Virus record (IMG/VR): IMGVR_UViG_3300020048_000026
Location: 32,001 to 96,000 of that record
Strand: one strand, 5' to 3'
Length of the DNA: 64,000 nucleotides
Source of the DNA: a virus
A program made the translations under genes and the position numbers. Position 1 is the first letter of the stretch, and each line of letters starts with the position of its first letter. Shown here piece by piece: positions 7,886 to 34,052 of this stretch. Under the pieces are notes generated by a model. The model had not been told where the DNA came from and made no database searches. It was given only the letters and a program-made list of their open reading frames with translations.

Positions 7886-10800
7886 ATGGCAATTATTCGT
7901 ATAAGAGATTTAGAAACAGAGGAAAATTTAATAGGAGAGAATTACATACCTATTGATAGAGACGATTATTATTCAAATGCTAAAAAACTTTCATTATCAA
8001 ACTTCAATAATTATATTACTGGAATTACCTATAGTTTCTCATCAGGATTAACCTCAGGAACAGATGGAACTTCAGGTAGTTCAGGTAGTTCAGGAATCAA
8101 TGGAACCTCAGGTTCGTCTGGTAGTTCAGGTCAAGACGGAACCAATTTTGGAACATCAGGTTCATCAGGCTCATCAGGCATTGGCGTTAATGGAACCTCA
8201 GGTAGTTCAGGTAGTTCAGGTATTGATGGTACAAACTTTGGAACATCAGGCTCATCTGGTAGTTCAGGAATAGGAATATCAGGAACAGATGGATCTTCAG
8301 GATCATCAGGAAGTTCAGGTCAAGACGGAACTAATTTTGGAACATCTGGATCTTCAGGTAGTTCAGGTACTTCTGGTGGTGGAAGTGGAACCGCAGGATC
8401 ATCTGGAACAGATGGAAGTTCAGGGACAGATGGAACCAATGGAACTTCAGGTAGTTCAGGAACTAATGGAACCAATGGAACCTCAGGTAGTTCAGGAACA
8501 GATGGAATCAACGGAACTTCAGGTAGTTCAGGTCAAGATGGAACATCAGGCTCATCAGGAACCAATGGTAGTTCAGGTAGTTCAGGATCGGATGGAACCT
8601 CAGGTAGTTCAGGAACTAATGGAACCAATGGAACCTCAGGTAGTTCAGGAATTTTACCACCATTAGGTACTAGTGGTGAATTGGTTTATACTGATCCATT
8701 GGCAACTTATGGATATAATGTAAATTTAGGATTAATTTTTTCTGGAAACACTTTATCTTTATCAGGTATAGGATTTAAATATGCTAATGGTTCTGAAGGT
8801 GTTGAAAAAATTCTTACAAGTGATGTTTTTGGTAATGCTGAATGGATAAGTGTTGTAACTGGAATAACAGATGTAATTGATAGAACATTTGATTTGAAAA
8901 TTTCAAATCAAGTATTATCTGTAGTACCGTATGCGACTAAAAAATCTTCTGATCCAGGATTTGCATATTTTTATTTAACAGGAAATACGAGTGGTCAAAC
9001 TCCAACATTTTATAATCCTTTGACTTTAGATGGCTATTTAAATTCTACAGGACAAAATATCTATACTATTGAAAATACTTCAGTTTTGGGTCCTGAATTG
9101 AATGTGAATCCTGATGGATGGACCGTAACAGGTGATGCTGTTAGTGTTGGAAGTGGAAAATACACTTTTAATACAAGTGGCGTAGCAGGTTCAATAAGTT
9201 ATAATTTTGGAACATTTTCATTATCTGATGTTTATATTTTTATTTTTTATTTTTCAAATGCTGTTGGTGGCGGTTTTCCTGGAATTACATTTGCTGGTGC
9301 TACTAAAACCTATATGGGTGGTTCTTATTCAGGATCTCAATTTAATCATTATGAAATTAATCCTTTAAATGTATCTGGTGTTTGTACATTAACAGTTGAT
9401 GCTGGTGCATATTCAAATTATTATATTAATCAAATAACAGTTAAAAAAGTATTGGCTCCTTCAAATAAATATATTACTCATTACACAACTGGTACAACTT
9501 CTAATGAATTTAGATCATCATATTCAAATGAAAATATTTCTGTTGGATTGGATTCTGGTAAATATCTTGTACCAACAAACACCAATATACCTACTGGAAC
9601 AGGTAATTTATCATTTGGAAAACAATCAATCTATAAGGCTACTGTGGCTACTGATAACCTAGCATTTGGAAATTATTCACAATGGGATTTGAGAGAGGGT
9701 GAGGATAATATAAGTATTGGAAATTATTCTTTATATTCCAATAAATTAGGTATAAGAAATATTGCAATTGGATCAAGGGCTCTTTTTACAACAACATCTA
9801 ATTATAATATAGCCATAGGGTATAGAGTTATGTCATTAGCCACTTCGGCATCTAGCAATGTTGGTATTGGAGTTGGTGTAATGCAATCTCTAACTACTGG
9901 CACATATAATACAGCAGTAGGGGCAAATAGTTCATTGGCTGTAACAAGCGCAAGTTATAATACTTCTTTGGGGACTGGATCTTTGCAAAATAATAGCACT
10001 GGTTCACATAACACTGGCGTGGGATCTTATTCTTTTACTTCGGTTTCATCTGGGACTTTAAATGTGGGGTTGGGGTATTATGCTGGATATGGAATATCTA
10101 CGGGCAGTTATAACGTACATTTAGGCCCTTACGCTGGCGGTGGATCAACTGATTATTCAAAAGAAGTATCGCAATATGCTTATAATTCGGCTGATAATAA
10201 TAATGTTTTCATTGGAAATTTAGCATCAAAATCAACATATACGGCAGCAGCGACATCTAATAGTGTAGCAATTGGGATAGATGCAAAAATATATCAAGAT
10301 AATCAAGTTACATTGGGTGGTAATAATGTATCATCAACATTTTTAAAAGGATCTGTTGAACTTCGAGATTTCACAATACTTGCTAACGAAACATTGAGTG
10401 ATATAAATCCTATTGATAATTCAAAATGGACAACAACAGGTGATATGTCGGTTTTACCCGGAAGCGGATTAACATATACTTATAATACAGGTTCTGGAAT
10501 ATTTTCCCAAACATTTGGTAATCAATTAAATCCTTTGAAGGGAAACAGGTGGTATAAAGTTATTCTTACTACAGCGGGCACACTGGCAATTCCTGGTCCT
10601 TATTATTCAACTTTTACTATATCAATTACAGGAAACACATTTGCCCCAACAACATTAAATTTTTATCCTTATACAAACACATCTCAATTTTTATATTTAA
10701 AAACTGTTACTAACCCAACTGATATAACATTTAATATAACTTGTGCACTAGGAACAGGTAATGGGATAGTTAGAATTTCAAATATAAGTATCAAAGAATG

Positions 10801-24264: not shown

Positions 24265-24930
24265 ATGGGTACAAGAGGTTCATCAGGGTTTATCTATAAA
24301 GATACACCTTATTTAAATTACAATCATTATGATTCCTATCCAGATGGTTTAGGTAGAGATGTTTTACATTTTATTGTAGATGTAAATAAAGAAAATGGTT
24401 GGGATAAATTCAAAGAAAATTCAAATGATATTATTCCAATAACAGAAAAAAGGATAACAGATCCTGATATAATTGAAAAATATAAGAAATATGCCGATTT
24501 AAGTGTTTCAACCAAAACATATGATGATCCATATTGCTTATTTAGAAAAATACAAGATTCTTGGATGCCTGAAATTTTAAAAGGCGAACTTAAACATTTT
24601 ACTTTTAATGATAATTTCATTAAAGAATCACTATTTTGCGAATATGCTTATGTTATTAATCTAGATACCATGAAATTGGAATTTTATGATGGATATCAAA
24701 AAGAAAGTCAACCTTCTAATAGATTTGGTGAAATACCTAATGAAGATGGTTATTATCCTTGCCGTTTAGTTGCTGTTTTTGATCTTCAAAAAATTCAAAA
24801 TAGTACTGACGTTGGACATATTGTAGAAAAAATGGATTTAATTTGTGATTTAAAAAAAGATGATCCGTCCATTTTACAATATTTCCGAAAACCAAAATTG
24901 GATAAAATAAATGAAAAAGCCTCTTTATAG
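24265..24930 (+). CDS. Conserved-looking phage hypothetical protein (ends in TAG)
   Basis: MGTRG...YNHYDSYPDGLG...CEYAYVINLD; RKPKLDKI tail. Confidence 0.7.
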   Translation: MGTRGSSGFIYKDTPYLNYNHYDSYPDGLGRDVLHFIVDVNKENGWDKFKENSNDIIPITEKRITDPDIIEKYKKYADLSVSTKTYDDPYCLFRKIQDSWMPEILKGELKHFTFNDNFIKESLFCEYAYVINLDTMKLEFYDGYQKESQPSNRFGEIPNEDGYYPCRLVAVFDLQKIQNSTDVGHIVEKMDLICDLKKDDPSILQYFRKPKLDKINEKASL

Positions 24931-24940
24931 AGGCTTTTTT
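24914..24940. terminator. Bidirectional intrinsic terminator
   Basis: aaaaagcctct-ttat-agaggctttttt between convergent CDS and tRNA genes. Confidence 0.8.
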
Positions 24941-24944
24941 CTTG

Positions 24945-25017
24945 CCCTAAGTGTAGGACTTGAACCTACGACCAACTATTTTAGAGATAGCTGCTCTACC
25001 AACTGAGCTAACAAAGG
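24945..25017 (-). tRNA. Amber suppressor tRNA (anticodon CUA) 1
   Basis: Cloverleaf; anticodon arm GCTAT-CTCTAAA-ATAGT; T-arm GTAGG-TTCAAGT-CCTAC; acceptor CCTTTGT/ACTTAGG with two U-U mismatches; G73. Confidence 0.85.
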
Positions 25018-25023
25018 ATTTTG

Positions 25024-25096
25024 AGATCCAGGTGGGGATCGAACCCACGACCAACTATTTTAGAGATAGCTTCTCTACCAACTGAGATACAAGATC
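25024..25096 (-). tRNA. Amber suppressor tRNA (anticodon CUA) 2
   Basis: Cloverleaf; identical anticodon arm; acceptor GATCTTG/CTGGATC with one U-U mismatch; U73. Confidence 0.88.
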
Positions 25097-25102
25097 AAGT
25101 AA

Positions 25103-25130
25103 GTTATTAGAGGATTCGTCCTCTAATAAC
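25103..25130. other. Perfect 12-bp hairpin in the suppressor-tRNA leader
   Basis: gttattagagga-ttcg-tcctctaataac. Confidence 0.75.
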
Positions 25131-25134
25131 AATA

Positions 25135-25142
25135 CAAAAGTA
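25135..25142 (-). promoter_or_regulatory. TAnnTTTG promoter box for suppressor tRNAs
   Basis: TACTTTTG on minus strand. Confidence 0.55.
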
Positions 25143-25166
25143 CTACTTTTCTTCCATAGAAAAAAA

Positions 25167-25583
25167 TTATTTATAAAAATTACCTTTTTCTAATTTATAT
25201 ATTTTTAAAAGCCTATCAGCCTCATTTCTCGCCTTAATCCATTCTTTTCTGGCGTTCTGGATTTTTTCTTCTTTAACAGATGGTTTAATACGAACCTTTT
25301 CTATTTCAAAAAGTCTTGATAACAATCCTAAAAAAGTGTTAATCTTCCTTAATGATGGCTTTTCACTTCTTTCAATCCAGTAACAATATTTCTGGATTTT
25401 TTTCATTTGATTTTGTGATAAATTTTTCCATTTAATCTCATAATATTTTTCAATATCACCTGATACTTGGTAATTATTTTCTTTGATAACTTTTTCAATT
25501 TTTTCAATTGCGTCTGCGATTTTGCTATCAATTTCACTTCTACTGTAGGTATACTCAATACCTGATGCTAATGTTGTTTCCAT
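25167..25583 (-). CDS. Hypothetical protein downstream of amber-containing leader
   Basis: 138-aa ORF. Confidence 0.7.
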   Translation of the reverse strand: METTLASGIEYTYSRSEIDSKIADAIEKIEKVIKENNYQVSGDIEKYYEIKWKNLSQNQMKKIQKYCYWIERSEKPSLRKINTFLGLLSRLFEIEKVRIKPSVKEEKIQNARKEWIKARNEADRLLKIYKLEKGNFYK

Positions 25584-25673
25584 AATGTTTTTTTGTTTTT
25601 TGTTTTTTTATAAAAAATTGTTTAATTGTAATTGAATTCTTGATTCGCGAATTGCGAATTTCTTATGGAAACT

Positions 25674-25697
25674 TTAAGGTGGTTTGTTCTACGTCAT
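25674..25697 (-). promoter_or_regulatory. Leader minigene ATG ACG TAG AAC AAA CCA CCT TAA (MT*NKPP*)
   Basis: Preceded by AAAGGAG; same ATGACGTAG start as the Pth-like gene. Confidence 0.6.
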
Positions 25698-25718
25698 AAC
25701 GTTCTCCTTTCTTTTTTT

Positions 25719-26099
25719 TTATATAATTTCTAATTTTTTTAATTTTGTTTTTCTCTCTTCTTTTTTTGATATATCAATCAAAAAATATTTTCCTTCTTTT
25801 TCATTATATTTTATTTGATAAATAAAAGGTCCCTCAGATATAACATCAAATTCAAAATAATTCTGTTTTGATTTTACAATATCATAACCAATTTTAGCAT
25901 TATTGTAAAAATTTAGAGTTTGAGTTCTATCTTCATTGTCATATTGACGATTAAGTAAACTAATTAAATTGTTCGCTAATCTCATATCACTAAATTCATC
26001 ATGAACTTTAGCATCCTTTATATCATCAAATAAACTCCAAAAAGAATCTGCTTTATATGATATTTTACCTTTTGATTCAATTTTAAATATCTTGCTCAT
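25719..26099 (-). CDS. Hypothetical protein with RKTKLKKL tail
   Basis: 126-aa ORF. Confidence 0.65.
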   Translation of the reverse strand: MSKIFKIESKGKISYKADSFWSLFDDIKDAKVHDEFSDMRLANNLISLLNRQYDNEDRTQTLNFYNNAKIGYDIVKSKQNYFEFDVISEGPFIYQIKYNEKEGKYFLIDISKKEERKTKLKKLEII

Positions 26100-26362
26100 A
26101 AATTATATTTTTTTGTTGCTTGATCTAATTCTACTCTTTCTTTAATTTTTTTCTGACTATACTCAATTGCAGTATCCATATACTCTGCTAAATGTTCACT
26201 ACAACAATTCGCTTCTAAATTTGATAACTGAGATCCACCAATAAAAACTAAGTATTTATCGTGATTTTGACAGTTTTCTTTACAACAATGTGAAGTATCT
26301 GAAAAACTTCCATGTATAACATGAACTTTGTAAAATTCGTAATATTCTTTATATGTAGCCAT
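26096..26362 (-). CDS. Cys-containing hypothetical protein (KKYNL family)
   Basis: 88-aa ORF. Confidence 0.65.
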   Translation of the reverse strand: MATYKEYYEFYKVHVIHGSFSDTSHCCKENCQNHDKYLVFIGGSQLSNLEANCCSEHLAEYMDTAIEYSQKKIKERVELDQATKKYNL

Positions 26363-26366
26363 AATT

Positions 26367-26627
26367 TTAGATGTTATAATTGTTTAATTCATTGAAAAAT
26401 TCGTAAACTTCTTTTAATTTTTTAACCATTTCATTTCTATCACTCTCGTCAAAATATCCCATATAAGTTCCTTCATACCAACCGCCTCCACCAGATATTG
26501 ATTCACTTTGATGCCCAGTATAAGAACATTCACTTAGAGATTCTAATTCATTAATGACCTCTAATAATAATTTATCTTCAAGCATAAACCACCTCCTCTC
26601 CTTTGAAAGTATTTTTATCAATTCCAT
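26367..26627 (-). CDS. Hypothetical protein (likely start MLEDK at 26585)
   Basis: ORF ends NNYNI. Confidence 0.55.
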   Translation of the reverse strand: MELIKILSKERRWFMLEDKLLLEVINELESLSECSYTGHQSESISGGGGWYEGTYMGYFDESDRNEMVKKLKEVYEFFNELNNYNI

Positions 26628-26967
26628 TAAATATATTGTATTCCTTTAACATTAAAGGTAAAGATGAGGTAAGCCTACGAGTTTTATCAGAAGGCTCAAT
26701 AGCAATCGCAGTAATCTGATTCCTAATATCAGGTTCACGAAAAACGACAAATTTTAAATGATTTTTTTCCAATTTTGAAATGAGAGAATATAATTCTTCT
26801 TCATTTTCTACAGAAAGCTGTGCTAAATAAGGGTCGTTGTACCAATAATTGGAAATTTGGTGATGTTCAACGAAAAACATAATCGCAGCATGGGTTGCTT
26901 GCGTTGCCTGATATCCAGGACTTAAATCTCTTCTTGTTACTGTTGTTAATTTGTTAACCTACGTCAT
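26578..26967 (-). CDS. Peptidyl-tRNA hydrolase (Pth2-like) with in-frame TAG at codon 3
   Basis: ATG ACG TAG then in-frame VNKLTTVTRRDLSPGYQATQATHAA joined to the 100-aa ORF containing FREPDIRNQITAIAIEP; both are Pth2-family motifs. Confidence 0.8.
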
Positions 26968-27025: not shown

Positions 27026-27063
27026 TGGAACTTTTTTAATAAAAAAAATTTTAAAAAATTAAT

Positions 27064-27280
27064 TATCTCATAGCCGCGATCTTGTTTCTAATCTCACATT
27101 TATCTAAGTCTTTCAACTTCCTTTCCAACGAAAGGTGCTCCAACCCGACCTCACAGGGAAACCGACACCCTCAGTCTGTTTGGATTGCTACTTGTGTGGT
27201 GATAACGAATTTCTTCTCCCACAGTAGGTTTTGTAGTCGCGAACTTCCTCTAATATTTCTACCAGCGTAAGATCGAATAA
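27064..27280 (-). ncRNA. rnpB: Minimal RNase P RNA
   Basis: GAGGAAGTTCGCGAC (CR-I-like), AGATAAATG (CR-IV-like), ACAAGATCGCGGCTAT (CR-V-like); P4 pairing GTTCGCGA/TCGCGGC with bulged U; GC-rich intergenic island. Confidence 0.8.
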
Positions 27281-27287
27281 TTAATTT

Positions 27288-27705: not shown

Positions 27706-28296
27706 TTATTTCAAGTTAAATCCGTTGTTTTTTAATGTGTCTTTTATATCTTCTACTGAAAGGTCACTTGTAAGTCCAACAAAGCCATTTTCATCCAATT
27801 GAATTTCACCAAGGTCAAGTTCTTCTATTTCTGGAAGTTCATCACAGGGATCCTGGTCTGATACATATTTTCCATTTTTCATCCAAACTGTTATTCCAAT
27901 ATTTATACCATCATTCTGATATAATTCTTTTTTCCAAGTTTCATTTGATAAACTGAAATCTTCAACTTCTAATAGATATTTAGAAACTTTTGATTTTGCT
28001 TTATAAATTGATGATGGTATACCATTTCCCTTTTTTACTAAAGTTGCATATTGTAAAATTGCAAGTCCGTAATCAGACATAATTTTATCTTTTTTTAATT
28101 TTAGTAAATTTTGATTTGTATTATTAATACCAATATTAGAATTTACTACTTTTAAAACAACTAATCCTGCATAATTATCATCTTTCAATTTGATAATTTC
28201 AAGTTCCATGTTATCTAACCAGCCATCTTTAACATTTATAATATCACCTTCGGAAAAACCGTTATAATTTGGTGAATAGTTTTTTACGTGTTTCAT
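27706..28296 (-). CDS. Hypothetical protein (start revised to MKHVKNY)
   Basis: TACATTTG box at 28318-28325 lies inside the longer ORF call, favouring ATG at 28296. Confidence 0.6.
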   Translation of the reverse strand: MKHVKNYSPNYNGFSEGDIINVKDGWLDNMELEIIKLKDDNYAGLVVLKVVNSNIGINNTNQNLLKLKKDKIMSDYGLAILQYATLVKKGNGIPSSIYKAKSKVSKYLLEVEDFSLSNETWKKELYQNDGINIGITVWMKNGKYVSDQDPCDELPEIEELDLGEIQLDENGFVGLTSDLSVEDIKDTLKNNGFNLK

Positions 28297-28350
28297 ATTT
28301 TTTAATTTTTGATACAACAAATGTATAACAATTTTCTGAAACAAAAAAAT

Positions 28351-28611
28351 CTATTTCAAATTTTTTTGTGTAATAGGTTCATTACATTTAGGACATTTTA
28401 TATATCCCATACCCGATTCAGTTACAGACAAATAATCAAATGTATGCTTACACTTTGGACAAATAACAAGATTTCCTATCCTATCAAGAACTTTTTGTTT
28501 TTCATCATCTGTCATTCTCTTCCATTTAGCAATTTCTTTTCCAGTTCGTTTACAACCTTTACAAACTCCATCTACTAAACCACATTTATCTACACAAGGA
28601 CTCTTTATCAT
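28351..28611 (-). CDS. DUF1289-like Cys-rich protein fused to zinc ribbon
   Basis: SPCVDKC...CKGCKRTGKEIAKW plus CPKC...CPKC. Confidence 0.7.
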   Translation of the reverse strand: MIKSPCVDKCGLVDGVCKGCKRTGKEIAKWKRMTDDEKQKVLDRIGNLVICPKCKHTFDYLSVTESGMGYIKCPKCNEPITQKNLK

Positions 28612-29150
28612 AACGATTTATTATTAATTTTTAAATATTTCAAAGGTACACTATCAGTTAACCAAACACCATTTTCACTCAAGTAAAATTTATAACCATC
28701 AGTATTCATTGCAGCTGAGTCAACTTCCAATATAATTGGAGCATTTCTTTTAGAATACCTTTTTCCTACACTATATGCAACTTCAATATCATCAGTTAAA
28801 TGTACATGAAGCCTTCTCATTTTTTCTAAACCCTTACCCCTAATAATCTTTTCATAACTATCAGGACTTGTACCATGATAAAGTACCCTTGGAGGTCTAA
28901 TCGCCTTTAATCCAACATCAACCTTAACCGAATGACCCTGAGATGCGCGAATTTTAGACTTATCCTGATTATAAGCCAATCTTTTCTTATCATTCGTATC
29001 TACAATATGATTCAATTCTTCCTGTGTTATACCAACCTTATTTAAAAGTGATTTAACATCAACATACCCACTAGTATCCATTATTAAATCCTCTGAATTG
29101 TGCCTTAATAGATAAGTTATCTTCTTTCCTATTTGTATATAATCTTTCAT
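28608..29150 (-). CDS. kptA: RNA 2'-phosphotransferase (Tpt1/KptA)
   Basis: LLRH, DKKR, IRASQGHS, LYHGT, RLHVHL, NGVWL motifs. Confidence 0.95.
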   Translation of the reverse strand: MKDYIQIGKKITYLLRHNSEDLIMDTSGYVDVKSLLNKVGITQEELNHIVDTNDKKRLAYNQDKSKIRASQGHSVKVDVGLKAIRPPRVLYHGTSPDSYEKIIRGKGLEKMRRLHVHLTDDIEVAYSVGKRYSKRNAPIILEVDSAAMNTDGYKFYLSENGVWLTDSVPLKYLKINNKSL

Positions 29151-31507: not shown

Positions 31508-31598
31508 TGGCGGAGAGTGTAGGATTCGAACCTACGGGACCCTTACGAGTCCTACAGTTTTCAAGACTGTCGCGATAGACCAACTCTGCCAACTCTCC
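31508..31598 (-). tRNA. tRNA-Ser(UGA)
   Basis: ACAGT-CTTGAAA-ACTGT, long variable arm, G73, encoded CCA. Confidence 0.95.
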
Positions 31599-31631
31599 AA
31601 TATTTTATATATAAAATTTATTCCTCTATGT

Positions 31632-32261
31632 TTAAATTAATATTAACCTATCTACACCAATCGCAAACCCAATTCCTCCATCATAACTACCACCACCACA
31701 AATTTGTTTCTGCGCACCCAATTTATCACAAGATATTTCAAATCCTTTTCCATCCTTATAGTAATCTAACCCCCTCTTCACATCTGTATTTATATCAAAA
31801 TCTGGTGTTACTAATTCAATTATTTTACTAGATATTTCTATAAGTTCATCTAAATAGTCCTTATTTGGATTCAAAATTTCAACTCCAAATTGTGTAAATT
31901 CCCTATATCTTCCTGCTTGTGGTGATTCACCTCTAAAACATTCTCCAATGTAAAATAATTTTACGTTTTTTTGATATTTTAATTTTTCCTTCGCTATTAA
32001 TTGAACAACAGCCGTATATTCAGGTGCTAAACATATATCACGATTACCAGCATCAGTAAATTTATACATCATATTCCTATTTTCCTCTCCAACCTTGGAT
32101 TGAAAAATTTCAGAATTTTGTATAATTGGTATCATAATTTCTTGATAACCATAAGAATACATAATATCAATCATTTTATTGATTAAATCTCTTTTGTATT
32201 TTGCTGTTTCATTAAAAAGAATCCTAGTTCCTTTATATGTATTTTTAAGTTTTATTTCCAT
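31632..32261 (-). CDS. hisS: Histidyl-tRNA synthetase-like protein, catalytic core only
   Basis: Motif 2 FRGESPQAGRYREFTQFGVE, RGLDYY, GGGSYDG, motif 3 GFAIGVDRL; ends right after motif 3. Confidence 0.85.
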   Translation of the reverse strand: MEIKLKNTYKGTRILFNETAKYKRDLINKMIDIMYSYGYQEIMIPIIQNSEIFQSKVGEENRNMMYKFTDAGNRDICLAPEYTAVVQLIAKEKLKYQKNVKLFYIGECFRGESPQAGRYREFTQFGVEILNPNKDYLDELIEISSKIIELVTPDFDINTDVKRGLDYYKDGKGFEISCDKLGAQKQICGGGSYDGGIGFAIGVDRLILI

Positions 32262-32292
32262 AATTTTTAAATTTTAAATTGAAGAATTATTG

Positions 32293-32366
32293 TAGGTTTG
32301 GTGGGACTCGAACCCACACAGCATTGATTAAGAGTCAATTTCAATATCCAGTTATGATACAAACCC
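32293..32366 (-). tRNA. tRNA-Lys(CUU)
   Basis: ATTGA-CTCTTAA-TCAAT; T-arm GTGGG-TTCGAGT-CCCAC; A73. Confidence 0.85.
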
Positions 32367-32370
32367 AATT

Positions 32371-32456
32371 TGGCACGAAAAGTAGGATTCGAACCCACGA
32401 ACTCTTACGAGATTTGTTTTGGAGACAAACGCCTTTGACCGCTCGGCAATTTTCGT
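32371..32456 (-). tRNA. tRNA-Trp(CCA) with long variable arm
   Basis: TTTGT-CTCCAAA-ACAAA; variable arm CTC-GTAA-GAG; A1-U72, G73, CCA. Confidence 0.85.
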
Positions 32457-32503
32457 ATTTAAAGATGTGCCTGTGTTAATTACATCACACATCTTAATAT
32501 TTT

Positions 32504-32740
32504 TTAGTTAAGTTGAATTAACTTATCATTATCTATTGCTTTTCTTATCCAACGCATAAGTTCAATACTTCTCATTTCTGGTAAAAAATATACATTTGCA
32601 AATTCTACATGATCAGTAGTGTCCATTTCTAATTGATATAATGTACCTTCAACTTGAATTATGTAATATACAACTCCGTTACATACATATGACATTTTAG
32701 CCATTGTTCCTTTTACGATTTCTTTTAAAGTGTGTTTCAT
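32504..32740 (-). CDS. Hypothetical protein within tRNA cluster
   Basis: 78-aa ORF. Confidence 0.65.
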   Translation of the reverse strand: MKHTLKEIVKGTMAKMSYVCNGVVYYIIQVEGTLYQLEMDTTDHVEFANVYFLPEMRSIELMRWIRKAIDNDKLIQLN

Positions 32741-32870
32741 TTTATTTATTATTTTTATTGTTTCTAAATAAGATAGTTTTTTTCAAAATAAACTGGACAT
32801 TTTTCATTTTGAAAAGTTTATGTGAGTAAGAAAAGGATAACTATCACCTATTGATGAAAATTATACTAAG

Positions 32871-32959
32871 TGGCGGAAAAAGAGGGGCTCGAACCCTCGC
32901 ACCGATAACGATCTATACGCTTTCCAAGCGTACCCCTTCACCAACTTGGGTATTTTTCC
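32871..32959 (-). tRNA. tRNA-Ser(GGA)
   Basis: TACGC-TTGGAAA-GCGTA, long variable arm, CCA. Confidence 0.93.
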
Positions 32960-32964
32960 ATTTG

Positions 32965-33037
32965 TGACCCGAAACGGATTTGAACCGCTGACGCAAAGAT
33001 CTTCAATCTTTCGCTCTACCAACTGAGCTACCAGGTC
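32965..33037 (-). tRNA. tRNA-Phe(GAA)
   Basis: AAAGA-TTGAAGA-TCTTT; canonical D and T arms. Confidence 0.93.
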
Positions 33038-33063
33038 AAAATTGTGGAATAAATCCACATTTG

Positions 33064-33137
33064 TGGTACCGACAGGCGTTGACCCTGTATTTTTGGCTTT
33101 TCAGACCAACACTCTTACACACTTGAGTTACGGCACC
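33064..33137 (-). tRNA. tRNA-Phe(GAA), atypical D/T loops
   Basis: TTGGT-CTGAAAA-GCCAA; T-loop GTCAACG; D-loop lacks GG; stems intact. Confidence 0.75.
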
Positions 33138-33143
33138 TTGTTG

Positions 33144-33228
33144 CGGGGAAGATTGGATTCGAACCAAAGAAGTTCTTTGCTGTAAATAATCTTTTCAGAA
33201 TATTCTCTCACCGTGAGAGATTTTCCCC
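33144..33228 (-). ncRNA. tRNA-like RNA A (ACAGCAA motif stem in anticodon-arm position)
   Basis: GGGGAA/TTCCCC acceptor, 7-bp D-like hairpin, AATATTCT-GAAA-AGATTATT-TACAGCAAA, TTGG-TTCGAAT-CCAA T-arm. Confidence 0.6.
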
Positions 33229-33241
33229 ATTTTATTTGTTG

Positions 33242-33316
33242 GGTGCTATGTCGGATTTGAACCGACGACCACTTGAACCACAATCAAGCATTCTAACCAA
33301 CTGAACTAATAGCACC
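33242..33316 (-). tRNA. tRNA-His(GUG), canonical with G-1
   Basis: CTTGA-TTGTGGT-TCAAG; G-1 and C73. Confidence 0.93.
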
Positions 33317-33321
33317 ATTTG

Positions 33322-33409
33322 GGTGTTAGACGGGACTCGAACCCGCAAGGAGTTTAACCTCTCCAGAGTCACAATCTGGCCCGATAACCTATTTACGGAC
33401 TACTAACAC
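33322..33409 (-). tRNA. tRNA-His(GUG) with long variable arm, no encoded G-1
   Basis: CCAGA-TTGTGAC-TCTGG; variable region AGAGGTTAAACTCCTT; C73; base at -1 is T. Confidence 0.82.
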
Positions 33410-33411
33410 AG

Positions 33412-33502
33412 CGGAAGTTGAGGGGCTCGAACCCTCGCGACGTTTTTCAGACGACCTATCAGTTTAGCAAACTGACCCCTTCACCAACTTGGGTAAACTT
33501 CC
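33412..33502 (-). tRNA. tRNA-Ser(GCU)
   Basis: TCAGT-TTGCTAA-ACTGA, long variable arm, G73. Confidence 0.93.
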
Positions 33503-33508
33503 ATTTTG

Positions 33509-33595
33509 CGGAGACAGACGGAGTTGAACCATCACATCAATTCTCATTGATTTCACCGTTTTCGAGGCGGCTAACTACACCAAATAGGTGTCTCC
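33509..33595 (-). tRNA. tRNA-Ser(CGA), atypical D-arm
   Basis: GCCGC-CTCGAAA-ACGGT; variable arm ATCAAT-GAGA-ATTGAT; C at position 8. Confidence 0.8.
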
Positions 33596-33600
33596 AAAAT

Positions 33601-33680
33601 CAGAATACTTTTTTGGATACGAACCAAGTGAACAAATTTCAAGTTTGTTTTTTTACCTTTGATTTTGCTGTAAGTATTCT
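33601..33680 (-). ncRNA. tRNA-like RNA B (ACAGCAA motif stem in acceptor position)
   Basis: AGAATACT-TACAGCAAA...ACAAA-CTTGAAA-TTTGT...TTGG-TTCGTAT-CCAA...AGTATTCTG. Confidence 0.6.
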
Positions 33681-33681
33681 T

Positions 33682-33771
33682 TGGCGGAAGATAAGGGAAT
33701 CGAACCCTTACACCGGCTCTCACCGATATCACTGTTTTCAAGGCAGCTTACCTCACGCAATGGGATCTTCC
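33682..33771 (-). tRNA. tRNA-Ser(UGA), atypical D-arm
   Basis: GCTGC-CTTGAAA-ACAGT; long variable arm; C8; CCA. Confidence 0.82.
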
Positions 33772-33778
33772 AAAGATG

Positions 33779-33860
33779 CACGCCCAAAAGGATTCGAACC
33801 TTTAACCACGCTTACGCATTACCGGGTTGGAACCGGCTGGTCACTCCAATGAGTGGACGC
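33779..33860 (-). tRNA. tRNA-Trp(CCA), long variable arm and atypical D-arm
   Basis: GCCGG-TTCCAAC-CCGGT; variable arm ATGC-GTAA-GCGT; C8; G73. Confidence 0.78.
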
Positions 33861-33876
33861 ATTTATTAATTTTTTG

Positions 33877-33960
33877 TGACCCCTATGGGACTCGAACCCA
33901 TGACTCCCTGATTAAAAGTCAGGTACTCTTCGCTTTCGCTACCAACTGAGTTAAGAGGTC
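33877..33960 (-). tRNA. tRNA-Lys(UUU) with D-loop insertion
   Basis: CCTGA-CTTTTAA-TCAGG; extra GC-GAAA-GC in the D-loop. Confidence 0.88.
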
Positions 33961-33965
33961 ATTAG

Positions 33966-34052
33966 TACGCCCGAAGGGAATCGAACCCTTGTACAACTTT
34001 CGTATCCCAGATTAAAAGTCTGGTGCCTCACGCCTATCTCGGCCACGGACGC
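33966..34052 (-). tRNA. tRNA-Lys(UUU) with long variable arm
   Basis: CCAGA-CTTTTAA-TCTGG; variable region GATACGAAAGTTGTAC; A73. Confidence 0.85.

What the first reader, a model, noticed from the sequence alone, without database searches (positions are those of the whole stretch)
24945..26967. Amber-gated module: two CUA suppressor tRNAs plus a Pth gene interrupted by TAG at codon 3
Seen: two tandem tRNAs with anticodon CUA. About 2 kb upstream on the same strand, a Pth2-like gene begins ATG ACG TAG; the conserved N-terminal motif (VTRRDLSPGYQATQATHAA) lies after the TAG with no in-frame ATG/GTG/TTG before it, so intact enzyme needs read-through. Long genes elsewhere are open in the standard code, so this is not genome-wide TAG recoding. 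Established: very short minigenes cause peptidyl-tRNA drop-off that Pth resolves. Inference: amber read-through, set by suppressor supply versus RF1, acts as a switch for Pth expression.
Basis: partly seen in the sequence, partly recalled or inferred. Interest (0 to 1): 0.86.

Follow-up and report, generated by a model that had tools for sequence, protein, structure and literature searches.

The report
Suppressor-tRNA-gated phage Pth2 operon
A giant phage that otherwise uses the normal genetic code puts a UAG stop at the third codon of a tRNA-hydrolase-like gene and of a tiny leader gene. It carries two UAG-reading tRNAs at the end of the same gene block, so these genes are probably made only when the phage's own tRNAs override the stop; dozens of distant phages keep this layout.

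Summary
Observation confirmed. The window is part of a 155-kb fragment of a roughly 700-kb phage that uses the standard code. On its minus strand a Pth2-fold gene (26967-26578) starts ATG-ACG-TAG. Two tRNA-CUA genes (25096-24945) close the same gene block, directly before a terminator.

I surveyed 92 distinct viral homologues:
- 66 have a stop 2-12 codons after the ATG and no other usable start.
- 64 of those stops are TAG, against a 16% background.
- 55 have a suppressor tRNA within 5 kb, always on the same strand and always matching.
- The one TAA lineage carries tRNA-UUA and the one TGA lineage carries tRNA-UCA.

The window's contig, the cultured phage pT24 and the 735-kb LR756501 all use TAG as an ordinary terminator elsewhere.

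New here is a second sensor. A 7-codon leader (25697-25674) has the same ATGACGTAG, then N-K-P-P-stop. Its 3' flank is complementary to the start region of the next gene, ORF138. Such leaders occur in 31 of 92 loci, and their stop co-varies too.

Best reading: Pth2 and ORF138 are translated only while the phage suppressor tRNA is active. The purpose is unknown, nothing is experimental, and raw reads could not be checked. This scan has already reported the same module on other DNA. I found no paper describing it.

The parts
26578..26967 (-). Pth2-like hydrolase gene of 129 codons. Codon 3 is TAG (26961-26959), followed by G. There is no alternative start for 26 codons.
   Evidence: Searches give the sequence. 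Pfam PF01981 matches at E 1.8e-7. The AlphaFold2 model has pLDDT 90. Foldseek finds archaeal Pth2 and human Bit1 at TM 0.65-0.77. A profile matches PDB 2zv3 at E 1.6e-11. dN/dS is 0.26-0.36.
26367..26627 (-). Small ORF of 86 aa that overlaps the end of pth2. Function unknown; not conserved across loci.
   Evidence: One search lists the ORF. No Pfam or PHROG hit. Clustering of neighbourhoods finds no recurrent family.
26096..26362 (-). Small Cys-rich ORF of 88 aa. Function unknown.
25719..26099 (-). ORF of 126 aa. Function unknown.
25674..25710 (-). Leader mini-ORF with an unusually strong SD-like AAAGGAG (25710-25704). It reads ATG ACG TAG AAC AAA CCA CCT TAA, that is M-T-stop-N-K-P-P-stop. 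The TAG is at 25691-25689.
   Evidence: Searches give the sequence. Homologous leaders, M-x(0-5)-stop-x(1-8)-(P/G)-P-stop and mostly (K/R)-P-P-stop, give 32 hits in 31 of 92 loci on the pth2 strand, against 2 on the opposite strand. Only 7 of 203 genes in this genome have an SD core.
25663..25672 (-). Anti-start segment GUUUCCAUAA, beginning 2 nt after the leader's stop codon. It is perfectly complementary to the ORF138 start region at 25585-25576.
   Evidence: RNAduplex gives -12.8 kcal/mol, and 0 of 300 shuffles do as well. The same arrangement is found in L021, L022, L024 and L048, and with different letters in L038. All 50 cells are paired in 5 relatives, with 3 wobble-preserving changes.
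25167..25585 (-). ORF138, a conserved helical protein of unknown function (ATG at 25583), with its start region UUAUGGAAAC (25585-25576).
   Evidence: Homologues lie between pth2 and the suppressor tRNA in 15 of 92 loci. The AlphaFold2 model has pLDDT 88. No Pfam, PHROG, Atlas or PDB match.
25024..25096 (-). tRNA-CUA 'A'. Its acceptor stem starts G1-C72 and has a U6.U67 mismatch; the discriminator is U. No CCA is encoded.
   Evidence: The acceptor stem resembles the single tRNA-CUA of relative L022.
24945..25017 (-). tRNA-CUA 'B'. Its acceptor stem starts C1-G72 and has tandem U.U mismatches at 4:69 and 5:68; the discriminator is G. The central part (positions 8-57) matches tRNA A at all but four positions.
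   Evidence: The tandem U.U is also present in L021's tRNA, with a compensatory change at 3:70.
24914..24939 (-). Intrinsic-terminator-like hairpin directly after tRNA B. It also faces the convergent plus-strand gene.
   Evidence: No terminator-like site was found between pth2 and the tRNAs on the minus strand.

Best explanation
This is a translation-level gate that reads the activity of the phage's own amber-suppressor tRNAs.

The minus-strand block runs pth2, three small ORFs, leader, ORF138, tRNA-CUA A, tRNA-CUA B, terminator. It is probably one transcript from which the tRNAs are cut out.

Without charged tRNA-CUA:
- Ribosomes starting at the pth2 AUG meet UAG at codon 3 and make only a dipeptide.
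- Ribosomes on the leader likewise stop at its codon 3.
- The segment just 3' of the leader pairs with the ORF138 start region and keeps ORF138 shut.

With active tRNA-CUA:
- UAG is decoded. The gating stops sit in a purine +4 context, unlike real TAG terminators.
- Full-length Pth2 is made.
- On the leader the ribosome goes four codons further, to K-P-P-UAA. Pro-Pro and a C-terminal Pro slow the ribosome there.
- The paused ribosome covers the anti-start segment and frees the ORF138 start.

So a Pth2-fold hydrolase and ORF138 are produced in step with suppressor activity.

Shown by sequence and comparison: the anatomy, its conservation, the stop-anticodon covariation, the standard code elsewhere, and the Pth2 fold.

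Inferred: co-transcription, tRNA expression and charging, read-through, stalling, and unmasking of the ORF138 start region.

The purpose is a weak inference. One possibility is that Pth2 recycles tRNAs from peptidyl-tRNAs released when stop-codon decoding is disturbed. Another is that it acts on the suppressor tRNA itself.
For: 1. Early stop in 66 of 92 distinct Pth2-like genes. It lies at codon 3 in 38, codon 4 in 15 and codon 5 in 8. No start codon precedes the conserved domain; in some loci more than 100 start-less codons follow the stop.

2. 64 of the 66 stops are TAG, against 16% TAG among ordinary stops in the same loci.

3. 55 of 66 gated loci hold a suppressor tRNA within 5 kb. All 71 such tRNAs are on the same strand, at a median distance of 1.1 kb. 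The anticodon matches the stop in 55 of 55.

4. L048 is a close relative of the window. It has TAA in pth2, TAA in its leader, a leader terminal stop changed to TAG, and tRNA-UUA. L069 has TGA in both pth2 and leader, and two tRNA-UCA.

5. The standard code holds elsewhere.
- G000: TAG ends 10 of 203 ORFs.
- pT24, complete and cultured: TAG ends 34 of 277 ORFs, pth2 is the only interrupted gene, and tRNA-CUA is one of 3 tRNAs ARAGORN finds (5 tRNA features, one labelled Sup, in the stretch of the record's annotation fetched).
- LR756501: coverage is 92.7% under code 11 and 92.6% under code 15. Its only two CUA tRNAs among 59 sit next to pth2.

6. dN/dS after the TAG is 0.26-0.36.

7. The base after the gating stop is a purine in 64 of 66 and T in 0 of 66. 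After 76 genuine TAG terminators T follows in 32 (Fisher p 5e-11).

8. Leader: there is a second ATGACGTAG. Leaders occur in 31 of 92 loci, against 2 control hits. The anti-start complementarity beats all shuffles in 6 of the 10 loci where both a leader and an ORF138 homologue were found, and is rewritten with different letters in L038.

9. A terminator follows the second tRNA and none lies between pth2 and the tRNAs.

10. Pth2 fold.
Against: - Nothing is experimental. tRNA expression, CCA addition, charging, the inserted residue and read-through are all unknown.
- Both tRNAs have acceptor-stem mismatches, and no identity could be assigned.
- TAG still terminates 5-12% of the phages' own genes. 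These show no nearer back-up stop than other genes, so a strong suppressor should carry a cost.
- Half of the gated genes have ATT, ATC or ATA after the stop. These could in principle serve as weak starts.
- The anti-start helix is AU-rich, is not in the minimum-free-energy fold, and shows only one-sided changes among close relatives.
- The LR756501-type relatives L023 and L027 have the leader but not this complementarity.
- 11 of 25 non-gated homologues also sit next to suppressor tRNAs. The Pth2-tRNA link is therefore wider than the gate and is not explained by it.
- The catalytic Lys of canonical Pth2 is not conserved.
- L048's pth2 has a frameshift near its 3' end.
- The TAG was not verified in reads.
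Confidence: 0.8

Rival explanations
1. Partial genetic-code change. The phage reads TAG as an amino acid (code 15, as in Lak and crAss-like phages) in some part of its genome, and pth2 is just one recoded gene.
For: Relatives of this clade, the Lak phages, are recoded. LR756501, L026 and L027 have a second TAG in pth2, aligned to Gln37 of the window protein. Only 22% of this genome is in hand.
Against: TAG terminates 10 of 203, 34 of 277 and 43 of 954 ORFs in G000, pT24 and LR756501. Code 15 adds no coding coverage. No other gene has a supported internal TAG in 155 kb, nor in the two complete genomes. A random recoded codon would not keep to codon 3-5 across homologues that are only 30-65% identical.
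Confidence: 0.04
2. Tiny upstream ORF with re-initiation. ATG-X-TAG is a start-stop mini-ORF, and the real Pth2 begins at the next codon (often ATT, ATA or ATC) by coupling. The CUA tRNAs are unrelated.
For: The codon after the stop is ATT, ATC or ATA in 32 of 66 cases. Start-stop elements are known regulators (established knowledge).
Against: In the window the next codon is GTT. In others it is GTA, AAC, AGC, ACA or GAA, none of them start codons. Coupling would work with any stop, and TAA is the commonest stop in these loci (424 TAA, 300 TGA, 137 TAG), yet 64 of 66 are TAG. The two exceptions match tRNA-UUA and tRNA-UCA. The leaders show the same covariation.
Confidence: 0.07
3. Dead gene or sequencing error. 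The TAG is a one-off nonsense mutation or a miscalled base.
For: Raw reads could not be checked. Two relatives (L006/L007 and L048) carry frameshifts in the gene.
Against: The same feature occurs in 66 distinct lineages, including a cultured isolate (pT24) and complete genomes. The downstream frame is intact with invariant R12, Q20, Q23, H26 and E78, and dN/dS is 0.26-0.36. An identical ATGACGTAG lies in the leader.
Confidence: 0.01
4. The gate is real but secondary. The suppressor tRNAs mainly serve another end, and pth2, the leader and ORF138 merely sense or buffer that activity. The other end could be extending host or phage proteins that end in TAG, disturbing host translation, or replacing or decoying tRNAs hit by host anticodon nucleases.
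For: 11 of 25 non-gated Pth2 genes still have a suppressor tRNA directly downstream, including mycobacteriophage Myrna gp84. An RNA-repair enzyme (Tpt1/KptA) and a mini RNase P-like RNA lie in the same block. In the window a DUF1289 gene ends in TAG in frame with the next ORF. The XacN1 authors found no read-through targets for that phage's two CUA tRNAs (PMC5852040).
Against: No conserved read-through extension was found. TAG-ended genes show no special features. In pT24 the only evident target is pth2.
Confidence: 0.3

Closest known systems
Stop-codon-recoded phages with phage-encoded suppressor tRNAs (TAG read as Gln, 'code 15': Lak, crAss-like; bioRxiv 10.1101/2021.08.26.457843; PMC9523058)
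   Same: A phage-encoded tRNA-CUA reads in-frame UAG, so that certain phage genes are translated only when that tRNA is present. This was proposed there as a timing device.
   Different: Here the genome uses the standard code and TAG is a working terminator. Only one enzyme gene and a leader carry the stop. The stop is fixed at codons 3-5, lies next to the tRNA gene, and co-varies with the anticodon (TAA/UUA, TGA/UCA).
prfB (RF2) autoregulation through an in-frame UGA (own knowledge, not tested here)
   Same: An early in-frame stop codon in a translation-factor gene makes its synthesis report on how that stop codon is being decoded.
   Different: prfB escapes the stop by a +1 frameshift and senses its own product. 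Here the stop is read by a dedicated tRNA, and no feedback of Pth2 on decoding has been shown.
RAPP/RGPP (RxPP) ribosome-arrest leader peptides such as ApdA, ApdP, ApcA and SecM (PMC10951233, PMC7897499, PMC12992588)
   Same: A short ORF upstream of a regulated gene ends in basic-x-Pro-Pro. A paused ribosome is thought to open the downstream start site. Some relatives' leaders carry RAPP, RGPP, RDPP or RSPP exactly.
   Different: The window's leader is only 7 codons, ends N-K-P-P followed directly by a stop, and has a UAG at codon 3. Whether the ribosome reaches the arrest site therefore depends on a suppressor tRNA. Known arrest peptides are long and sense secretion or membrane insertion.
Leader-peptide attenuators of amino-acid operons (trp, his; own knowledge)
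   Same: A tiny ORF is written in the codons whose tRNA supply is to be sensed, and ribosome position chooses between RNA pairings.
   Different: The sensed codon is a stop codon and the sensed tRNA is encoded by the same operon. No terminator hairpin with a U run follows the leader, so control looks translational.
Archaeal/eukaryotic peptidyl-tRNA hydrolase Pth2 (PDB 2zv3, 1xty, 1wn2, 1q7s) and PTH2 of jumbo phages (PMC7824862)
   Same: Same fold (TM 0.65-0.77). The Q..Q..HA motif is shared. The acidic catalytic position is kept as an invariant Glu.
   Different: The Lys of the G-K-G-K loop is replaced by P-G-Y-Q, and the family forms its own conserved subfamily. The jumbo-phage survey mentions neither the in-frame stop nor the tRNA link.
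Orphan suppressor tRNAs of standard-code jumbo phages, such as Xanthomonas phage XacN1 (PMC5852040)
   Same: CUA tRNAs occur in a phage that uses the standard code, and the authors could find no target.
   Different: In XacN1 the Pth2-like domain is the C-terminal part of ORF364 and has no early stop. The gate described here does not explain that phage.
Lambda bar minigenes and Pth
   Same: An AUG-sense-stop mini-ORF whose product would be a dipeptidyl-tRNA, which is a Pth substrate.
   Different: There is no evidence here that drop-off is the signal. Here the mini-ORF is the unsuppressed state of a real gene.

Membership tests
Pth2 peptidyl-tRNA hydrolase (Pfam PF01981) | Sequence match above the family's curated cut-off | tested here: met
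   31.8 bits against a cut-off of 23, E 1.8e-7, covering profile positions 2-113 of 115. A profile of 61 homologues matches 2zv3 at E 1.6e-11.
Pth2 peptidyl-tRNA hydrolase (Pfam PF01981) | Pth2 alpha/beta fold | tested here: met
   The AlphaFold2 model has pLDDT 90.1 and pTM 0.81. The top 13 Foldseek PDB hits are all Pth2 or Bit1, with TM 0.64-0.77 and probability 1.00.
Pth2 peptidyl-tRNA hydrolase (Pfam PF01981) | Catalytic residues (Lys of the G-K-G-K loop and the Asp of the D-A-G motif, as I recall them from the S. solfataricus work) | tested here: inconclusive
   The Asp position aligns to the invariant Glu78. The Lys position aligns to Tyr19/Gln20 and is not Lys in this subfamily.
Pth2 peptidyl-tRNA hydrolase (Pfam PF01981) | Hydrolysis of peptidyl-tRNA or N-acyl-aminoacyl-tRNA | not testable with these tools
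   This needs an enzyme assay.
Amber suppressor tRNA | Cloverleaf tRNA with anticodon CUA in a 7-nt loop | tested here: met
   Rfam RF00005 gives 60.3 and 60.0 bits. ARAGORN cloverleaves have the loop C-U-CUA-A-A.
Amber suppressor tRNA | Expressed, CCA-tailed, aminoacylated and active on UAG | not testable with these tools
   CCA is not encoded. Identity by nearest-neighbour comparison was inconclusive, with a weak lean towards Lys-type bodies. Read data were unavailable.
Code-15 (TAG-recoded) phage | In-frame TAG in many genes, and TAG not used as a terminator | tested here: not met
   There is one interrupted gene in 155 kb, and TAG ends 10 of 203 ORFs. The same holds in pT24 and LR756501.
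RAPP/RGPP-type arrest peptide | C-terminal Arg-(Ala/Gly)-Pro-Pro core | tested here: not met
   The window's leader ends N-K-P-P. Most relatives have (I/V/N)-(K/R)-P-P. A few have RAPP, RGPP, RDPP or RSPP. It may work like one, but it is not filed as a member.
RAPP/RGPP-type arrest peptide | Ribosome arrest that exposes the downstream start site | tested here: inconclusive
   The segment 2 nt after the leader's stop is complementary to the ORF138 start region. This beat shuffles in 6 of the 10 loci tested that hold both a leader and an ORF138 homologue, and in 8 of 29 leader hits (28 loci) overall. Arrest itself was not tested.
Transcriptional leader-peptide attenuator | Terminator hairpin with a U run after the leader, and an alternative anti-terminator | tested here: not met
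   No terminator-like site lies between 25674 and 25583. The fold is weak, with z -0.67.

The most novel reading that the evidence does not exclude
The block is a self-contained homeostat or timer for stop-codon suppression. The UAG in the leader and in pth2 measures how well the phage's own suppressor tRNAs are working. The two products, the Pth2-like hydrolase and ORF138, then act back on those tRNAs or on termination to hold suppression at a set level or to trigger a phase of infection. For example, they might hydrolyse peptidyl- or acyl-tRNA-CUA, or act on RF1. That would be a natural regulatory circuit built around a stop codon as its signalling codon, and it would explain the 'orphan' suppressor tRNAs of standard-code phages.
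Probability: 0.2. Interest if true: 0.9.

Novelty: new variant of a known kind. Interest (0 to 1): 0.78.

Why it matters
Suppressor tRNAs in phages that use the standard code have had no known target. The XacN1 authors say so explicitly (PMC5852040).

This finding supplies a conserved target, backed by natural compensatory evidence: the stop type changes together with the anticodon. Together these show that phages use a stop codon plus a private tRNA as a gene switch without recoding their genome.

It also joins two known control principles, suppressor-dependent translation and Pro-Pro arrest leaders, into one device. It links the archaeal-type Pth2 of large phages to stop-codon decoding.

A cultured carrier, Tenacibaculum phage pT24, makes the pth2 gate directly testable (no KPP-stop leader was found there). 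Natural tRNA-and-codon pairs of this kind may also interest those who engineer orthogonal suppression.

Tried and rejected
- tRNA identity: nearest-neighbour comparison with 178 other phage tRNAs gave no clear class. No GlnRS/GluRS or TyrRS/TrpRS gene lies on this contig, only a class-II fragment.
- Release-factor gene on the contig: none.
- ORF138 function: no hit in Pfam, PHROGs, the ESM Atlas or Foldseek-PDB.
- Back-up stops after TAG-ended genes: no different from other genes in three genomes.
- XacN1 as a further gated example: rejected, because its Pth2 domain is fused and open.
- Mycobacteriophage Myrna: not gated, although a tRNA-CUA follows the gene.
- Lak-A2 homologue: the N-terminus is unclear, with TAA TAA upstream and tRNA-UUA nearby. 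Not pursued.
- pT24 leader of the KPP-stop type: not found.
- Transcription attenuator after the leader: no terminator found.
- Read-through-stimulating structure at the pth2 start: only a weak AU hairpin seen by eye. Not tested.
- Rfam match for the RNase P-like element: none.
- Complex prediction was not used, because no protein-protein claim is made.
Full report
WHAT THE WINDOW IS. The window is bases 32001-96000 of a 154,853-bp IMG/VR viral contig that CheckV rates 22% complete, so the phage is of the order of 700 kb. G+C is 27%. It has a T4-type large terminase. Its nearest records are the 735-kb, 462-kb and 634-642-kb 'uncultured phage' genomes LR756500-LR756504 and LR745206, and Tenacibaculum jumbo phages. 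Only 7 of 203 ORFs have a Shine-Dalgarno core. Together with the Tenacibaculum relatives this suggests a Bacteroidota-type host; that is inference.

THE OBSERVATION. Two tandem tRNAs with anticodon CUA lie on the minus strand at 25096-25024 and 25017-24945. The Pth2-like gene runs 26967-26578 on the same strand and begins ATG ACG TAG GTT. The next ATG/GTG/TTG is 26 codons further on, after the conserved block that holds the family's invariant R12, Q20, Q23 and H26.

The protein is a genuine Pth2-fold protein. It scores above the Pfam PF01981 cut-off. A profile matches archaeal Pth2 structures at E 1.6e-11. The AlphaFold2 model has pLDDT 90 and superposes on Pth2 and Bit1 at TM 0.65-0.77. The catalytic Asp position is an invariant Glu. 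The Lys of the canonical G-K-G-K loop is absent, so this is a distinct subfamily.

NOT A CODE CHANGE AND NOT AN ERROR.
- On the whole contig the standard code gives 93% coding. TAG ends 10 of 203 ORFs, and pth2 is the only gene with a supported internal TAG.
- In the complete genome of the cultured phage pT24, TAG ends 34 of 277 ORFs. The pth2 homologue is the only interrupted gene, and its annotated CDS starts 90 nt late. The tRNA-CUA is one of only 3 tRNAs ARAGORN calls there; the fetched stretch of the record's annotation lists 5 tRNA features, one labelled Sup.
- In the 735-kb LR756501, code 15 adds no coverage (92.6% against 92.7%). TAG ends 43 of 954 ORFs, and the only two CUA tRNAs among 59 sit beside pth2.
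- The frame after the TAG evolves under purifying selection, with dN/dS 0.26-0.36.

THE COMPARATIVE PATTERN. Two scans of IMG/VR, with the window itself added, gave 92 distinct Pth2-like domains from contigs of 23-63% G+C.
- 66 have ATG, 1-11 sense codons, a stop, and no start before the domain. The stop is at codon 3 in 38, codon 4 in 15 and codon 5 in 8.
- 64 of these stops are TAG, although TAG makes up only 16% of ordinary stops in the same loci.
- 55 of the 66 loci hold a suppressor tRNA within 5 kb. All 71 such tRNAs are on the gene's strand, and 59 lie downstream.
- The anticodon matches the stop in every case. L048 is a close relative of the window with a nearly identical gene start. 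It has TAA at codon 3 and a tRNA-UUA where the window has its CUA pair. L069 has TGA and two tRNA-UCA.
- Gating stops are followed by a purine in 64 of 66 and never by T. In three genomes 32 of 76 real TAG terminators are followed by T. That fits a context chosen for suppression. It is partly confounded, because the next residue is usually a conserved Ile or Val.
- 25 homologues have an ordinary start. 11 of these still have a suppressor tRNA directly downstream, including gp84 of mycobacteriophage Myrna, whose neighbouring tRNA-CUA is annotated tRNA-Ser. The link between this enzyme and suppressor tRNAs is therefore wider than the gate.

A SECOND SENSOR IN THE SAME BLOCK. A note from this scan on the same stretch mentioned a matching minigene, so I searched for it. 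ATGACGTAG occurs a second time, at 25697-25689 on the minus strand, with 2 matches against 0.10 expected. It opens a 7-codon ORF, M-T-stop-N-K-P-P-stop. This ORF is preceded by AAAGGAG, one of very few SD-like sites in the genome. It lies 90 nt upstream of ORF138, the 138-codon gene that precedes the tRNAs.
- The same kind of leader, M-x(0-5)-stop-x(1-8)-(P/G)-P-stop and mostly (K/R)-P-P-stop, gives 32 hits in 31 of the 92 loci on the pth2 strand. The opposite strand gives 2.
- Variants include RAPP, RGPP, RDPP and RSPP, the cores of known ribosome-arrest peptides (PMC10951233, PMC12992588).
- The leader's gating stop co-varies as well. In L048 it is TAA, with the terminal stop changed to TAG. 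In L069 it is TGA.
- Four of the 'non-gated' pth2 loci have such a leader 370-640 nt upstream of pth2.

In the window the ten bases beginning 2 nt after the leader's stop (25672-25663, GUUUCCAUAA) are the exact complement of the ORF138 start region (25585-25576, UUAUGGAAAC). The duplex is -12.8 kcal/mol and beats all 300 shuffles. The same holds in L021, L022, L024 and L048, and with quite different letters in the 56%-GC L038. Among five close relatives all 50 cells pair, with three wobble-preserving changes and no double changes. L023 and L027 lack this pairing. No terminator follows the leader, so the control looks translational.

HOW IT MOST LIKELY WORKS. A terminator-like hairpin follows the second tRNA, and none lies between pth2 and the tRNAs. 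I therefore infer one transcript: pth2, three small ORFs, leader, ORF138, two tRNAs.

Before charged tRNA-CUA accumulates, ribosomes end at codon 3 of pth2 and of the leader. The anti-start segment then pairs with the ORF138 start.

Once the tRNA is active, UAG is read. Pth2 is completed. On the leader the ribosome moves four codons on, to K-P-P-UAA. Pro-Pro and a C-terminal Pro are established to slow peptide-bond formation and termination. A ribosome paused there would cover the anti-start segment and open ORF138.

Every dynamic step is inference. The anatomy, its conservation and the covariation are shown.

Why a Pth2-type hydrolase and ORF138 should be tied to suppressor activity is open. 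Pth2 may recycle tRNAs from peptidyl-tRNAs shed when stop decoding is disturbed, act on the suppressor tRNA itself, or serve as part of a timer. ORF138 is helical (pLDDT 88) and matches nothing.

THE tRNAs. The two genes differ at only four of the 50 positions of their central part (positions 8-57). Their acceptor stems resemble two different lineages seen singly in relatives: L022 for tRNA A and L021 for tRNA B. This points to gene conversion of the core. The tandem U.U mismatches in tRNA B are shared with L021 and accompanied by a compensatory change at 3:70, so they are a kept feature and not decay. The 47 distinct suppressor tRNAs in the survey are very diverse and could not be assigned to an amino acid. 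That suits a position where the inserted residue hardly matters.

LITERATURE AND EARLIER NOTES. No searchable paper combines PTH2, suppressor tRNA and phage. PTH2 in jumbo phages is known (PMC7824862). Suppressor tRNAs without a target are on record for XacN1 (PMC5852040), where I found the Pth2 domain fused and ungated. This scan has reported the same gated Pth2 module, and leaders with early UAG, on other genomes.

LIMITS. There are no expression, charging or proteomic data, and reads were unavailable. Only one lineage each supports TAA/UUA and TGA/UCA. L048's gene has a late frameshift. L069 has a GTG start codon 3 codons before the conserved Arg that could serve as a start. The cost of suppressing the phage's own TAG terminators is unexplained.

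Noticed in passing
window 27059-27284 (-), directly upstream of pth2: A GC-richer (43%) non-coding island, conserved at 78-80% in LR756501 (at 181 kb, far from its pth2), L021, L060, L048 and L004. It fits the catalytic half of RNase P RNA: P1, P2, P3, a P4 pseudoknot with a bulged U, and a short stub where the specificity domain should be. 90.7% of cells pair, and 16 pairs show compensatory changes against 2-3 in slid controls. Rfam gives no hit. The likeness to E. coli M1 RNA motifs is from memory.
   Followed up: partly
window 31508-34052 (-): tRNA array. ARAGORN genes and Rfam 11 in this span, including 33064-33137 and 33322-33409, which ARAGORN misses; three adjacent ARAGORN calls (32292-32366/32371-32456, 32871-32959/32964-33037, 33876-33960/33965-34052) have only one Rfam hit each. 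Several ARAGORN calls are unusually long (85-92 nt) for Trp, Lys and Arg. An earlier scan note proposes a leader-peptide attenuator here.
   Followed up: no
window 28608-29150 (-): An RNA 2'-phosphotransferase gene (Tpt1/KptA, PF01885, E 1.5e-42) lies in the same minus-strand block. This enzyme belongs to tRNA splicing and repair.
   Followed up: no
window 27706-28611 (-): The DUF1289 gene (28611-28351) ends in TAG and is in frame with the next ORF (28344-27706). Amber suppression would extend or fuse it. Conservation was not checked.
   Followed up: no
window 31632-32273 (-): A 213-aa ORF matches only part of the class-II aminoacyl-tRNA synthetase core (PF00152, E 2.5e-8), next to the tRNA array. 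LR756501 has a similar gene, plus GlnRS/GluRS-like and TyrRS/TrpRS-like genes.
   Followed up: no
window 25704-25710 (-) and the whole contig: SD-like motifs are nearly absent from this genome: 7 of 203 genes, which is below the random background. The leader nevertheless carries AAAGGAG. The same purine run can also pair with the anti-start segment in the minimum-free-energy fold.
   Followed up: partly
L001:6005-6388, L026, L027: The LR756501 subclade has a second in-frame stop in pth2 at codon 40 (TAG confirmed in LR756501). It aligns to Gln37 of the window protein.
   Followed up: partly
L208:1966-2037 (Mycobacterium phage Myrna): The tRNA 130 nt downstream of the Pth2-like gp84 has anticodon CUA by ARAGORN, but the record annotates it as tRNA-Ser.
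   Followed up: no
L012:4234-5282 (Prevotella phage Lak-A2): The Lak homologue of pth2 has no in-frame start after TAA TAA. A tRNA-UUA lies 700 nt upstream. Its start remains unexplained.
   Followed up: no
L020:957-1796 (Xanthomonas phage XacN1 ORF364): In XacN1 and two IMG/VR relatives (L073, L134) the Pth2-like domain is the C-terminal third of a roughly 280-aa protein with an unrelated N-terminal part.
   Followed up: partly
window 9102-9128 (+): This is the only other hit of the leader pattern on the contig: M-stop(TGA)-I-L-M-D-G-P-stop, with no SD-like site. It is probably chance.
   Followed up: no
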